Source: an uncultured bacterium
GTDB lineage: Bacteria > Babelota > Babeliae > Babelales > Babelaceae
Reading direction: 5' to 3'
Assembly: GCA_963819815.1 (NCBI GenBank)
Contig: CAWFXL010000001.1
Location: 1,120,001-1,184,000 of the forward strand
Length of the DNA: 64,000 nucleotides
The translations under genes and the position numbers were made by a program. The notes beneath the pieces were generated by a model. The model was not told the DNA's origin, searched no databases, and saw only the letters and a program-made list of their open reading frames with translations. Positions 32,658 through 34,313 of this stretch are shown here, in pieces; positions within the stretch are counted from its first letter, which is position 1, and each line of letters starts with the position of its first letter.

Positions 32658-34313
32658 TTAGGACGAATGATTAAAACCTTGCTCAAACGCAGCATATTTT
32701 TGCATAGCAAAATCTACTGCAACGACAATAAGCTCAGGAGTGATAAGACCATCTTCACGAATAGAGGCATCTGATATAAGGCCATTGATAATACCTTCGA
32801 GCTCACCCCCTGAAAGTCCATCCGTCTTGTAGGCAAGATCCGAAAGGACCGTATCTGACAAGTTCTTTTGAACAGATTCAATGAATTCAGGGCTATTCTC
32901 ACTAGGATCGAGCATCAGTTTATCTCGATATAAGGCAAGGATACCTAAACGTTCACGCTCCGCAGGAAGGGGAATTTCTATAGAATCATCAATACGTCTT
33001 TTCATTGCCTCATCAAGTACTTCTGGATGGTTCGTTCCAAACACCAACATAACCTTATTACTACGCTCACCGGTAAGATTAAGAAAGTTAGTAAGCAGCT
33101 GATACGATTCTGAAGAAATATCCGCACCCGACCTTCCTCCTAAGAATGCTTCGGCCTCATCAATAAAAAGTATAAGCCCACCTGTAGGAGCATGTTGTGC
33201 CCATTCAAAAAGCTTGTTCATATGACTAATCCCTTCTCCCCGACCCCGATATTGCGAAAAGGAAGCGCCTGACATAATCACATAGTCCATGTCCGAATGC
33301 TCTGCTAAAATACGGGCAAACATAGTTTTACCTGTGCCGGGAGGACCCCACAGAAGAAGATTTCTGTAGCGAATATTTTTTTGGCCAGCAATGATTTTTT
33401 CATGTATCGTCCGCGCTGCAAGAGCAATAGAATCTAAGCGCTCAGTAAGATCAGGTGCGCATATCATCCGAGGTTTTTCTTTTTTAGTGCTGCCCAAAAG
33501 ATAGCACAAGAAGCGCTGCAGATAATTTTTATGCGAGGTTTCAAGTACTAAAGCGGGTGTCCTTAAATTTCTATCAATATGCCTCCAAAGAAACCATGAA
33601 CTTATAAGGAGCACTCCACCTATTAGCACATTTCTCACAACCTTTTGGGAGGCATCATCAAGAGCATCGCCAACCTCTTCCACGCCGCCACGCACATTCT
33701 GTGCGGCTGCTCTCACAGCTCTATGAGCTGCTCCGCCATCCAGATTTAATGCTTCAAAGTGTTCAAAAAGTATACGTACCTCATCAACAGCAAGGTTTCG
33801 CATGTCTTCAATCAGTGCTTTCATCACACCATCTTCATTAATATAATCCTTGAGGGTATTAATTATTTTTCTCAGGGCTTCACGTCCTTCACCATCGGGA
33901 TTATATAAGTCGCCTATCGCAATTGCACCATTTTTAAATAAATTTTTCATGAACTGTGCGCCTGCTGCTTCTTTATCTTTAGAATCGGTTGCCGCATTCA
34001 GCGCTTTAAAAAAGGTGTTAACTATCTCTTTCATCTGAGCGTCCTGGCTCTTAACCTCAGGATTTACCAACCCACCTGGAATTACCTGTTGCCTCGGTTG
34101 CAATCGCTGTTGAATATTTTCCAACGCTCCGTCAACGGTAGCTGAGCCCATGGCTCTAAATGGATATTTAAGGACATCAGTAATACCTGTATAAATGCCA
34201 GATAACGCACGAACAAAAATATTTGACTGCGGTTGCTCTGACTGAACCACCGCCTGCAAAGAAAGGCTATAGAAAATACATAAGAACCCTAAACTTACCA
34301 GCTTACAATGCAT
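32658..34313 (-). CDS. Exported/membrane ATAD3-like AAA ATPase
   Basis: Signal peptide, TM, [53 protein letters not shown], RRID. Confidence 0.85.
   Translation of the reverse strand: [551 protein letters not shown]

What the first reader, a model, noticed from the sequence alone, without database searches (positions are those of the whole stretch)
32658..34313. Signal-peptide-bearing bacterial homolog of mitochondrial ATAD3
Seen: Sec signal, helical region, TM, then [17 protein letters not shown] and an AAA domain [34 protein letters not shown]...MNKLFEWA...[13 protein letters not shown]...[15 protein letters not shown]. From recall, eukaryotic ATAD3 has closely matching segments ([62 protein letters not shown]) and the same TM-then-AAA layout. 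ATAD3 is generally regarded as a eukaryotic mitochondrial membrane ATPase. Inference: either a host-mimicking effector acting on mitochondria (a Dependentiae parasite, Chromulinavorax, is reported to remodel host mitochondria) or a bacterial relative informative about ATAD3 origin.
Basis: partly seen in the sequence, partly recalled or inferred. Interest (0 to 1): 0.75.

Follow-up and report, generated by a model that had tools for sequence, protein, structure and literature searches.

The report
Bacterial sister family of mitochondrial ATAD3
A parasite-of-protists bacterium (Dependentiae) encodes a membrane-anchored ATP-driven motor protein whose closest relatives outside bacteria are the essential mitochondrial protein ATAD3 of eukaryotes, and it sits in the bacterial inner membrane the same way round as ATAD3 sits in the mitochondrial one.

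Summary
The ORF is real: 32658-34313 (-), 551 aa, with every quoted motif. It has an N-terminal signal peptide, about 205 helical residues, one TM, the linker [10 protein letters not shown] and an intact classic AAA module.

ATAD3 is its nearest family outside bacteria. ATAD3 scores 107-171 bits and aligns from the TM to the C-terminus. Every other AAA domain tested scores at most 78 bits and aligns only from Walker A.

It is not an ATAD3 orthologue. It lacks the ATAD3_N coiled coil. It belongs to a large multicopy Dependentiae family, G1, found in 91 of 201 phylum genomes.

In two careful ML trees G1 is sister to ATAD3 plus a second Dependentiae family, G2. A related Chlamydiota family branches more basally. 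ATAD3 therefore appears nested among bacterial lineages. AU tests do not reject the alternatives (p 0.15 and 0.06), so the direction of transfer stays open.

The topology (periplasmic N-part, cytoplasmic AAA) argues for a resident inner-membrane machine, not a secreted mitochondrial effector.

Eight literature searches listed no description. One IMG auto-annotation already names a cluster mate 'ATAD3A/B'.

The parts
32658..34313 (-). Gene for the 551-aa ATAD3-like membrane AAA ATPase (family G1)
   Evidence: ORF. A G-rich Shine-Dalgarno-like stretch lies just upstream of the ATG (intergenic sequence printed). 96%-identical protein P0001 and 48-72%-identical full-length relatives are listed.
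34251..34313 (-). Residues 1-21: Sec-type signal peptide (hydrophobic core, ...SLQA|VV)
   Evidence: Hydropathy peak at residues 5-24. 79 of 101 full-length G1 members have an N-terminal hydrophobic segment, against 0 of 18 ATAD3s. Cleavage is inferred, not shown.
33630..34250 (-). Residues 22-228: variable, all-helical region predicted to lie in the periplasm
   Evidence: The AF2 model built with an alignment shows helices only, at pLDDT 40-70. There is no Pfam match. The region does not align with ATAD3. Its length in G1 ranges from 90 to 824 residues.
33585..33629 (-). Residues 229-243: single transmembrane helix ([15 protein letters not shown])
   Evidence: Hydropathy. It is part of one long helix, 196-250, in the model. 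It aligns with the ATAD3 TM in hhalign.
33531..33584 (-). Residues 244-261: juxtamembrane linker motif ([18 protein letters not shown]), the hallmark shared with ATAD3
   Evidence: Pro253 is conserved in 122/126 G1, 11/11 G2 and 23/24 ATAD3 sequences. The columns are absent from the outgroup AAA domains. Weak sub-threshold matches to the last ~75 positions of PF12037 occur in three G1 relatives.
32967..33359 (-). Residues 319-449: AAA ATPase core with Walker A GPPGTGKT, pore-loop Tyr, Walker B FIDEAE, sensor-1 Asn and RR arginine fingers
   Evidence: Pfam PF00004 at E 1.2e-23. Motif table. Model pLDDT above 90. Foldseek matches Rpt/PAN/p97/YME1/FtsH ATPase domains at E about 1e-14.
32679..32966 (-). 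Residues 450-545: C-terminal helical lid, collinear with the ATAD3 C-terminus
   Evidence: hhalign runs through to query residue 546 and ATAD3 (P0048) residue 577. Model pLDDT is about 98.
30433..31872 (-). Tandem paralogue, 479 aa, with degenerate ATPase motifs (Walker A GPSGCGKR, Walker B D-N, no sensor-1 Asn, no Arg finger): probable pseudo-ATPase
   Evidence: ORF. 31% identity to the 551-aa protein over 229 residues at E 1e-30. Terminal branch of length 2.2 inside G1.
32152..32526 (-). 124-aa ORF that duplicates the N-terminal part (signal peptide and first about 125 residues) of the 479-aa paralogue, with a similar upstream sequence
   Evidence: BLASTP 34% identity at E 8e-09. The upstream intergenic stretches are alike. 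No Pfam match. No tblastn match in 29 related loci.
34416..34449 (-). Terminator-like hairpin (13-bp stem) between the upstream 736-aa gene and this gene
   Evidence: It suggests that the AAA gene has its own promoter. No promoter-like site was found at 34314-34415.
34457..36667 (-). Upstream 736-aa exported protein ending in ...GLQYSF (outer-membrane-barrel-like C-terminus), a syntenic neighbour within the organism's own family
   Evidence: ORF. No Pfam or NCBIfam match. Found next to the G1 gene in 5 of 29 related loci, all five from family f1. The outer-membrane assignment is inferred from the C-terminal aromatic residue only.

Best explanation
The gene encodes a resident inner-membrane AAA+ ATPase of a Dependentiae (Babeliales) bacterium. 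It belongs to a bacterial superfamily that shares a common ancestor with eukaryotic ATAD3.

Proposed mechanism:
1. The Sec signal peptide sends the N-terminus across the inner membrane and is cleaved after Ala21.
2. About 205 helical residues stay in the periplasm.
3. The single TM (229-243) stops transfer.
4. The conserved linker [10 protein letters not shown] and the AAA module stay in the cytoplasm.
5. The module assembles, like other classic-clade AAA proteins, into a ring under the membrane.
6. The ring uses ATP to pull on or remodel a membrane-embedded or membrane-proximal client through its aromatic pore loop.
7. The periplasmic helical part reaches toward the outer membrane.

This is the same orientation as ATAD3, which has its ATPase in the matrix, its TM in the inner membrane and its N-part pointing outward.

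Shown here: the ORF, the hydrophobic segments, the intact catalytic motifs, the specific homology to ATAD3 from the TM to the C-terminus, and the family's distribution. Inferred: signal-peptide cleavage, topology, ring formation, the kind of client, and envelope bridging.
For: Anatomy. The ORF and motifs are, and the two hydrophobic segments. Walker A and B, sensor-1 Asn, both arginines and the pore-loop Tyr are present and conserved across G1. The model has a confident AAA-plus-lid fold, with pLDDT above 90 for residues 280-545.

Specific kinship with ATAD3.
- After bacterial relatives, the next hits are PF12037-bearing ATAD3s at E 1e-46 to 1e-40, with 33-39% identity over 50-60% of the query.
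- In the exhaustive search, 409 representatives reach E<=1e-30.
- Per-domain scores are 107-171 bits for ATAD3, aligned from the linker onward. CDC48 D1/D2, the genome's own FtsH and other AAA domains score at most 78 bits and align only from Walker A.
- The best single-AAA chain listed from the PDB scores 76 bits.
- hhalign of the family against ATAD3 gives E 8.3e-79, query 232-546 to ATAD3 263-577.

Trees. The ATAD3-like ingroup separates from other AAA domains at 100/98 and 100/100. G1, G2 and ATAD3 are each monophyletic at 99-100. ATAD3+G2 has 97/97 and 95/91.

Family topology. Of 101 full-length G1 proteins, 79 have an N-terminal hydrophobic segment and 89 have a TM before the linker.

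Distribution. Matches at E<=1e-20 occur in 91 of 201 phylum genomes, often several per genome. The window's own genome has 4 family copies: this gene, the 479-aa paralogue, L002 and L004.

ATAD3 topology comes from passages of PMC13249166.
Against: No experiment or expression data exist; no RNA run was listed.

The ATAD3_N coiled-coil domain is absent. Any functional analogy therefore rests on the TM, linker and AAA part only.

The periplasmic region is modelled at low confidence and is highly variable in the family. That variability is also what one expects of host-facing or fast-evolving surface parts.

The charge bias around the TM is weak: mean net charge is +0.9 before and +1.4 after.

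The genome has several secretins, so Sec-dependent export beyond the periplasm exists in this organism.

Ring formation was not tested, because a hexamer exceeds the size limit of the complex predictor.

The outgroup set lacked Bcs1, Msp1, katanin/spastin/Vps4 and Rpt sequences. Their greater distance is inferred from PDB and HMMER scores only.
Confidence: 0.65

Rival explanations
1. Secreted, host-mimicking effector. The protein leaves the bacterium, inserts into host mitochondria and imitates or interferes with host ATAD3, contributing to the mitochondrial remodelling seen with some Dependentiae.
For: Chromulinavorax remodels the host mitochondrion, and 44% of its proteins carry signal sequences (PMC6561590, abstract and passages).

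The family is multicopy, with a very variable N-terminal part of 90-824 residues, as is common for host-facing proteins.

The genome has secretins for Sec-dependent export.

ATAD3-like families occur in the two intracellular phyla examined here, Dependentiae and Chlamydiota.
Against: The hydrophobic TM after the signal peptide should act as a stop-transfer anchor in the bacterial inner membrane.

No VirB4-type T4SS or FHIPEP T3SS marker was found in this genome, which is 88% complete.

There is no mitochondrial presequence and no ATAD3_N domain.

The bacterial proteins are not copies of any crown-eukaryote ATAD3. ATAD3 is monophyletic at 100/99, and the bacterial families keep the pore-loop aromatic residue that ATAD3 lacks.

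The Chromulinavorax paper does not contain the word 'AAA' (0 occurrences).
Confidence: 0.1
2. Ancient xenologue. A stem- or early-eukaryote ATAD3 gene was captured by intracellular bacteria. It lost the coiled-coil N-domain, gained a signal peptide, expanded and evolved fast. The apparent nesting of ATAD3 among bacterial groups would then be a long-branch artefact. Under this reading the protein's function in the cell may still be as in the best explanation; only the origin differs.
For: AU tests do not reject the relevant alternatives. All bacterial sequences held as one clade give p 0.062, and G1+G2 held together give p 0.153.

Bacterial stem branches are long: G1 0.51, the Chlamydiota group 0.66-0.72 and L002/L004 0.92, against 0.36 for ATAD3.

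Both bacterial phyla found to carry the family are intracellular, in line with (my own knowledge, not a call) their known uptake of eukaryote-like genes.

The quick search and the first constrained search disagreed, which shows a flat likelihood surface.
Against: Both careful ML trees place ATAD3 inside the bacterial radiation, with 95-97% ultrafast bootstrap for ATAD3+G2.

The bacterial families keep states shared with outgroup AAA domains that ATAD3 has lost. The pore-loop aromatic residue is F/Y in 89 of 126 G1, F in 11/11 G2 and Y in 4/4 Chlamydiota, against L/M in 24/24 ATAD3. The first SRH arginine is R in 94/126 G1, against D in 24/24 ATAD3.
Confidence: 0.35
3. Generic bacterial AAA ATPase (for example an FtsH- or CDC48-derived paralogue) whose likeness to ATAD3 is only the shared conservation of all classic AAA domains.
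For: NCBIfam and PDB searches list PAN, CdvC, FtsH and CDC48 as matches. Foldseek returns generic classic-clade AAA structures.
Against: All NCBIfam scores are far under their cut-offs, for example FtsH at 66 bits against 600.

ATAD3 scores about twice any other AAA domain, and its alignment extends about 75 residues upstream into the linker and TM.

The ingroup branch has 100/98 and 100/100 support.

There is no M41 protease domain and no second AAA module.
Confidence: 0.03

Closest known systems
Eukaryotic ATAD3 (ATAD3A/B; Pfam PF12037 ATAD3_N + PF00004 AAA), an inner-mitochondrial-membrane AAA+ ATPase
   Same: One TM, followed by a conserved Pro-containing linker: the ATAD3 consensus is [11 protein letters not shown] and here it is [10 protein letters not shown]. 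About 60 residues follow, then a classic AAA module and a collinear C-terminal lid. Identity is 33-39% over about 300 residues. The orientation relative to the inner membrane is the same, with the ATPase on the matrix/cytoplasm side. For ATAD3 this comes from passages of PMC13249166; for this protein it is inferred from the signal peptide plus TM.
   Different: There is no ATAD3_N coiled-coil domain and the N-parts do not align. It has a Sec signal peptide instead of internal mitochondrial targeting. It keeps an aromatic pore-loop residue and both SRH arginines, which ATAD3 has replaced, and it lacks the sensor-2 Arg that ATAD3 keeps. In the trees it falls in a separate clade, G1, not within ATAD3.
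Dependentiae family G2 (e.g. P0223, named 'AAA family ATPase [Candidatus Babeliales bacterium]')
   Same: Same phylum and same layout (signal peptide, about 200-residue N-part, TM, linker, AAA). Proteins of G2-bearing genomes match the query at E about 1e-43 to 1e-46 (G2 identified).
   Different: G2 has the ATAD3-type linker (consensus LG.PTLVRESSR), a charged coiled-coil-like N-part and the sensor-2 Arg. It is the sister of ATAD3 in all four trees built. It was found in 36 of 261 phylum genomes, nearly all in families f10 and f12, and in 0 of 40 genomes of the window's own family.
Chlamydiota membrane AAA family (e.g. P0076, P0279, P0311; source names 'AAA family ATPase' or 'FtsH' of Chlamydiae/Rhabdochlamydiaceae bacteria)
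   Same: It has a TM followed by a G[RK]P.LA.E linker (40 of 46 sequences inspected) and an AAA module of the same superfamily. It groups with G1, G2 and ATAD3 at 100/98 and 100/100.
   Different: It is from another phylum. Most members carry extra hydrophobic segments between the linker and Walker A. It branches basal to G1+G2+ATAD3. It was not found in 261 Dependentiae genomes at E<=1e-50.
FtsH (TIGR01241; membrane-anchored AAA protease)
   Same: A periplasmic part, a membrane anchor and a cytoplasmic classic-clade AAA ring. This is the nearest textbook bacterial analogue for the mode of action (my own knowledge).
   Different: There is no M41 protease domain. The NCBIfam FtsH score is 66 bits against a cut-off of 600. 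The genome's own FtsH (L007) scores only 53 bits against the query region and lies in the outgroup.

Membership tests
ATAD3 (eukaryotic, PF12037 + PF00004) | AAA module more similar to ATAD3 than to any other AAA family | tested here: met
   ATAD3s score 107-171 bits per domain, against at most 78 bits for every other AAA domain compared. The best single-AAA PDB chain listed scores 76 bits. hhalign gives E 8.3e-79.
ATAD3 (eukaryotic, PF12037 + PF00004) | TM helix directly followed by the conserved juxtamembrane linker (consensus [11 protein letters not shown] in A3), about 60 residues before Walker A | tested here: met
   The query has ...[22 protein letters not shown]. The P, L, V, E, T and S positions coincide. 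Pro253 is conserved in 122/126 G1, 11/11 G2 and 23/24 ATAD3.
ATAD3 (eukaryotic, PF12037 + PF00004) | N-terminal ATAD3_N coiled-coil domain (PF12037) | tested here: not met
   There is no PF12037 match in the query, even at E<=1. A local HMM of the ATAD3 coiled-coil part matched 24 of 250 sequences, all of them ATAD3s: the 22 it was built from plus P0235 and P0236. hhalign starts only at the TM.
ATAD3 (eukaryotic, PF12037 + PF00004) | Falls inside the clade of eukaryotic ATAD3 sequences | tested here: not met
   ATAD3 is monophyletic at 100/99 without the query. The query lies in G1 (100/99), which is sister to G2+ATAD3.
ATAD3 (eukaryotic, PF12037 + PF00004) | ATPase on the matrix-equivalent side of the inner membrane, with the N-part pointing outward | tested here: inconclusive
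   This is predicted from the signal peptide plus single TM. No experimental topology exists. The ATAD3 topology is taken from PMC13249166 passages.
ATAD3-like superfamily (ATAD3 + Dependentiae G1/G2 + Chlamydiota family; defined here) | One clade apart from other classic AAA domains, and a shared TM / Pro-linker / AAA / lid architecture | tested here: met
   The ingroup branch has 100/98 (76 rows) and 100/100 (74 rows) support. The outgroup was limited to CDC48 D1/D2, FtsH, other AAA paralogues of the window's genome and multi-AAA proteins.
FtsH (TIGR01241 / MEROPS M41) | C-terminal M41 zinc protease domain, and a score over the NCBIfam cut-off | tested here: not met
   No Peptidase_M41 match. 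TIGR01241 scores 66.5 bits against a cut-off of 600.
CDC48/p97 | Two tandem AAA modules and an N-domain | tested here: not met
   There is a single AAA module. TIGR01243 scores 60.5 bits against a cut-off of 802.

The most novel reading that the evidence does not exclude
Eukaryotic ATAD3 did not come from the archaeal host or the alphaproteobacterial mitochondrial ancestor. It descends from an inner-membrane AAA ATPase of a Dependentiae/Chlamydiae-type intracellular bacterium, acquired before the last eukaryotic common ancestor. It kept the bacterial orientation (ATPase inside, N-part toward the outer membrane) and later gained the coiled-coil N-domain. The Dependentiae G1/G2 proteins would then be living relatives of the pre-mitochondrial form.
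Probability: 0.35. Interest if true: 0.9.

Novelty: new variant of a known kind. Interest (0 to 1): 0.7.

Why it matters
ATAD3 is essential in animals, plants and apicomplexans, and it is mutated in human mitochondrial disease. Its molecular job and its evolutionary origin are both unsettled. In the papers I could read it is treated as a eukaryote-only protein (PMC3790746 passages; PMC13249166 passages).

The bacterial sister families share ATAD3's TM-linker-ATPase core and its membrane orientation. This gives three things:
1. Simple bacterial proteins on which the conserved core can be studied. That includes the unexplained juxtamembrane linker motif.
2. A concrete, testable hypothesis about the origin of a mitochondrial inner-membrane protein that involves intracellular bacteria other than the mitochondrial ancestor.
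3. A large unannotated protein family of Dependentiae and Chlamydiota that now has a name to hang on. At least 110 of the 150 best 50%-identity representatives are single-module family members.

Tried and rejected
- Single-sequence AlphaFold model: pLDDT 38.8, unusable. It was replaced by the alignment-based model.
- Foldseek against the PDB and the PDB sequence search: only generic classic AAA structures. No ATAD3 AAA-domain structure appeared, so these gave no finer assignment.
Only 3 of the 80 loci kept (L039-L041) were true relatives, so it gave no picture of distribution outside Dependentiae. Two of those three records are titled 'uncultured Pseudomonadota', but they have the same coordinates as genomes G149 and G169 of the window's own order. 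I therefore treat the titles as mislabels. The 'Epsilonproteobacteria/Campylobacterota' label of P0056 was not checked.
- Quick ML tree and its AU test: the constrained tree was better than the quick free tree (+9.5 lnL). I discarded the quick tree and ran careful searches.
- ESM Atlas look-ups: they pointed to clusters labelled Chlamydiota, Bdellovibrionota and Melainabacteria, and to ATAD3 clusters. I used them as leads only. Chlamydiota was confirmed by names; the other two were not followed.
- Sequencing runs: no RNA holder was listed, and the one soil-metagenome DNA run held 0.23 of the words.
- Complex prediction was not used, because a hexamer of the AAA part exceeds its size limit.
- Earlier scan notes: there was nothing on this locus or on ATAD3.
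- The review by Waters et al. 2023 on ATAD3 across eukaryotes is not held. It may discuss prokaryotic relatives, and I could not check.
- Operon link with the upstream 736-aa gene: the adjacency is conserved only within the organism's own family (5 of 29 loci), and a terminator-like hairpin separates the genes. I make no claim of a functional pair.
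Full report
OBSERVATION

One search lists an ATG-started ORF at 32658..34313 on the minus strand, 551 aa. A G-rich Shine-Dalgarno-like stretch precedes the ATG (intergenic sequence).

A hydropathy scan finds two hydrophobic segments. One is N-terminal, at residues 5-24, ending ...SLSLQA before VV. The other lies at about residues 225-243 ([15 protein letters not shown]).

Pfam finds one AAA module at residues 319-449 (PF00004, E 1.2e-23) and nothing else above threshold. 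NCBIfam matches to PAN, CdvC, FtsH and CDC48 are all far below their cut-offs.

The AlphaFold model built on an 81-sequence alignment has mean pLDDT 77.8. It gives a confident AAA-plus-lid fold for residues 280-545 (pLDDT above 90). Helix 196-250 is one long helix that contains the TM. The N-terminal part, residues 25-220, is all-helical but of low confidence. A first single-sequence model was useless.

ORGANISM

The window is G000:C1:1120001-1184000 of a 1.64-Mb, two-contig genome that is 88% complete. Named relatives of the protein are 'Candidatus Dependentiae bacterium' (P0016 and P0041). A genome of the same order carries a protein named 'Candidatus Babeliales bacterium' (P0223 = G248).

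IS THE ATAD3 LIKENESS SPECIFIC?

In the word-indexed search 643 proteins reached E<=0.001 and the best 120 were listed. After a 96%-identical protein (P0001) and about 40 bacterial relatives of 34-72% identity, the next hits are eukaryotic proteins. They carry PF12037 (ATAD3_N) plus PF00004, at E 1e-46 to 1e-40 and 33-39% identity over 50-60% of the query. An example is P0048, named ATAD3-B-like of a spider. Two-module CDC48 proteins follow only at 1e-35 and below.

The exhaustive HMMER search with residues 240-551 found 409 representatives at E<=1e-30.

A per-domain comparison shows a clear gap:
- Family members score 150-680 bits.
- ATAD3s score 107-171 bits, and both groups align from the first residues after the TM.
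- Every other AAA domain scores at most 78 bits and aligns only from Walker A onward. This set comprises CDC48 D1 and D2, multi-AAA giants, the genome's own FtsH at 53 bits, and its other AAA paralogues.

Among solved structures, the best single-AAA chain listed scores 76 bits.

Profile-profile comparison of the family alignment with 18 ATAD3s gives E 8.3e-79 over 308 columns. It runs from query residue 232 (inside the TM) to 546, against ATAD3 (P0048) residues 263-577.

The hallmark is the juxtamembrane linker. The consensus is [11 protein letters not shown] in ATAD3, and the query has [10 protein letters not shown]. The proline is conserved in 122/126 G1, 11/11 G2 and 23/24 ATAD3 sequences, and these columns do not exist in the outgroup domains.

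WHAT IS NOT SHARED

The coiled-coil part of ATAD3_N is absent. There is no PF12037 match in the query, even at E<=1. Three relatives (P0010, P0012, P0013) give only weak sub-threshold matches, and only to the last ~75 profile positions, which cover the TM and linker.

A local HMM of the ATAD3 coiled-coil part matched only ATAD3s: 24 of 250 sequences, 22 of them by construction. hhalign does not extend N-terminal of the TM.

None of 18 full-length ATAD3s has an N-terminal hydrophobic segment, whereas 79 of 101 full-length G1 proteins do.

THE FAMILIES

G1 is the query's family. It occurs at E<=1e-20 in 91 of 201 sampled genomes of the phylum (57 of 120 genera), often in several copies and in tandem.

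The window's genome has four copies:
- this gene;
- the adjacent 479-aa paralogue at 30433..31872;
- L002;
- L004.

A second Dependentiae family, G2 (11 representatives; alignment A1), has a signal peptide and a charged, coiled-coil-like N-part of about 200 residues. It also has a TM and an ATAD3-type linker (LG.PTLVRESSR). With P0223 as query at E<=1e-60 it was found in 36 of 261 phylum genomes. These were f10 24/35, f12 11/12, f4 1/4, and 0/40 in the window's own family f1.

A third group (P0061, P0064, P0074, P0076) is a Chlamydiota family:
- 114 proteins reach E<=1e-30, with source names of Chlamydiae, Chlamydiota, Chlamydiia and Rhabdochlamydiaceae bacteria plus one Verrucomicrobia.
- It was not found in 261 Dependentiae genomes at E<=1e-50.
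- It has a TM followed by G[RK]P.LA.E in 40 of 46 sequences inspected, mostly with extra hydrophobic segments before Walker A.

TREES

FastTree on 195 rows by 304 columns gave the first outline. A quick ML tree proved suboptimal, because a constrained search found a better likelihood. I therefore ran careful IQ-TREE searches with LG+C20+F+G4 (PMSF).

Tree A has 76 rows, 305 columns and lnL -34303.57. Support values are ultrafast bootstrap / SH-aLRT:
- the ATAD3-like ingroup against other AAA domains: 100/98;
- the four Chlamydiota rows are basal;
- then own L002+L004 (95/87 for the remainder);
- G1 100/99, G2 99/94, ATAD3 100/99;
- ATAD3+G2 97/97;
- G1 with (ATAD3+G2) 91/72.

Tree B adds 16 more Chlamydiota rows. 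It has 74 rows, 302 columns and lnL -32731.39:
- ingroup 100/100;
- Chlamydiota 100/99;
- G1+G2+ATAD3 96/94;
- ATAD3+G2 95/91.

On the outgroup root, ATAD3 is thus nested among bacterial lineages, and the query's family is the sister of ATAD3+G2.

Results against a firm reading:
- Holding G1+G2 together costs 7.25 lnL, p-AU 0.153.
- Holding all bacterial rows together, so that ATAD3 is sister to all of them, costs 8.67 lnL, p-AU 0.062. Neither alternative is rejected.
- The bacterial stems are long, so long-branch attraction toward the outgroup is a live concern.
- Rows were sub-sampled from 195 to 76 and 74 by tree distance and by hand.
- Bcs1, Msp1, katanin/spastin/Vps4 and Rpt sequences were not in the outgroup.

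CHARACTER EVIDENCE ON DIRECTION

The pore-loop-1 aromatic residue is present in the outgroup (Y/W/F). It is also present in G1 (F 76 and Y 13 of 126), G2 (F 11/11) and the Chlamydiota rows (Y 4/4). ATAD3 has L or M there (24/24).

The first SRH arginine is R in 94/126 G1 and 18/28 outgroup rows, but D in 24/24 ATAD3 and S in 9/11 G2.

The bacterial proteins are therefore not derived from crown-group ATAD3. ATAD3 carries the derived states.

Conversely, the sensor-2 arginine is kept by ATAD3 (24/24), G2 (11/11) and the Chlamydiota rows (4/4). It is kept by only 27/126 G1 rows, and the query has Gly.

MECHANISM

The catalytic equipment is complete: Walker A GPPGTGKT, Walker B FIDEAE, sensor-1 Asn, RR fingers and a pore-loop Tyr. 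I therefore expect an active, ring-forming classic-clade AAA unfoldase or remodeller.

A signal peptide plus one stop-transfer TM predicts that residues 22-228 lie in the periplasm and that the linker and ATPase lie in the cytoplasm. That is the orientation of ATAD3 relative to the mitochondrial inner membrane (ATPase in the matrix, N-part outward; passages of PMC13249166). It is also, from my own knowledge, that of FtsH.

I therefore read the protein as a resident inner-membrane machine of the bacterial envelope. Its client and the role of the variable periplasmic part are unknown.

The effector reading is weaker, for four reasons:
- The TM should hold the protein in the bacterial membrane.
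- There is no mitochondrial presequence.
- Markers of T4SS (PF03135) and T3SS (PF00771) were not found in this 88%-complete genome, although secretins are present.
- The Chromulinavorax paper, which documents mitochondrial remodelling, never mentions AAA proteins (abstract and passages read).

NEIGHBOURHOOD

The upstream 736-aa exported protein at 34457..36667 has no family match and ends in an aromatic residue, like outer-membrane barrels. It neighbours the G1 gene in 5 of 29 related loci, all from the organism's own family. A 13-bp terminator-like hairpin at 34416-34449 separates the two genes.

Downstream lie two further ORFs. A 124-aa ORF duplicates the 5' part of the 479-aa paralogue. The 479-aa paralogue itself has degenerate Walker A (GPSGCGKR), Walker B (D-N), sensor-1 and arginine-finger positions and sits on a very long branch. 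It may be a regulatory pseudo-ATPase partner.

NOVELTY AND LITERATURE

Searches:
- 'ATAD3' with 'Dependentiae' returned 0 papers.
- 'ATAD3' with phylogenetic/bacteria/origin returned 54 papers, 20 listed.
- ATAD3/prokaryotes/homolog/LECA.
- ATAD3/eukaryotic lineages/evolution.
- ATAD3/Chlamydia.
- ATAD3/horizontal gene transfer.
- Dependentiae/AAA/mitochondria/effector.
- Chromulinavorax/mitochondria.
By title or abstract start, none listed a paper describing bacterial ATAD3 relatives.

I read passages of four papers. PMC3790746 describes ATAD3 as found in animals, plants and protists and not in yeast. PMC8243069 contains no such statement. The other two were PMC13249166 and PMC6561590.

The review of Waters et al. 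2023 is not held and could bear on this.

Automatic annotation has already noticed the likeness. [quoted passage not shown]

VERDICT

The protein is a true, specific bacterial relative of ATAD3, but it belongs to a sister family and is not an orthologue. It most likely works in the bacterium's own inner membrane.

The bolder reading is that ATAD3 arose from such a bacterial protein. The ML trees and the character states favour it, but the AU tests do not settle it.

Noticed in passing
window 30433-31872 (-) and 32152-32526 (-): The tandem 479-aa paralogue has every ATPase motif degenerate (GPSGCGKR; Walker B D-N; no sensor-1 Asn; no Arg finger). Next to it, a 124-aa ORF repeats that paralogue's signal peptide, first ~125 residues and upstream sequence. 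These look like a pseudo-ATPase partner plus a partial duplicate.
   Followed up: partly
window 34457-36667 (-): A 736-aa exported protein with no Pfam or NCBIfam match ends in ...GLQYSF, like an outer-membrane barrel. It is conserved next to the G1 gene in 5 of 29 related loci, all from the same family, at 44-66% identity.
   Followed up: partly
window about 58086-64000 (G000:C1:1178086-1185459) and G000:C1:22164-22663: Three large secretin-domain (PF00263) ORFs of 796-942 aa lie close together at the end of the window. A further secretin locus elsewhere in the genome has an in-frame TGA.
   Followed up: no
proteins P0124, P0125, P0134, P0140, P0144, P0149-P0152 and others: Very large proteins (about 870-2100 aa) with 3 to 6 tandem classic AAA modules rank among the best 150 representatives. 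Their source and function are unknown. In the trees their modules fall in the outgroup.
   Followed up: partly
L039, L041 (records titled 'uncultured Pseudomonadota bacterium'): These MAG records have the same contig coordinates as genomes G149 and G169, which the genome search places in the window's own order (Babeliales). The public titles therefore look mislabelled. The 'Campylobacterota' label of P0056 may be a similar case.
   Followed up: partly
G000:C1:50658-61015 (L005, L006): Two further AAA paralogues of 706 and 777 aa (Walker A GPPGTGKS) sit 6 kb apart on a very long branch (about 3 changes per column) outside the ATAD3-like group.
   Followed up: no
window 30376-30409: A perfect 13-bp palindromic hairpin lies between the 479-aa paralogue and aspS. 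It is terminator-like on the + strand and, being palindromic, possibly acts on both strands.
   Followed up: no
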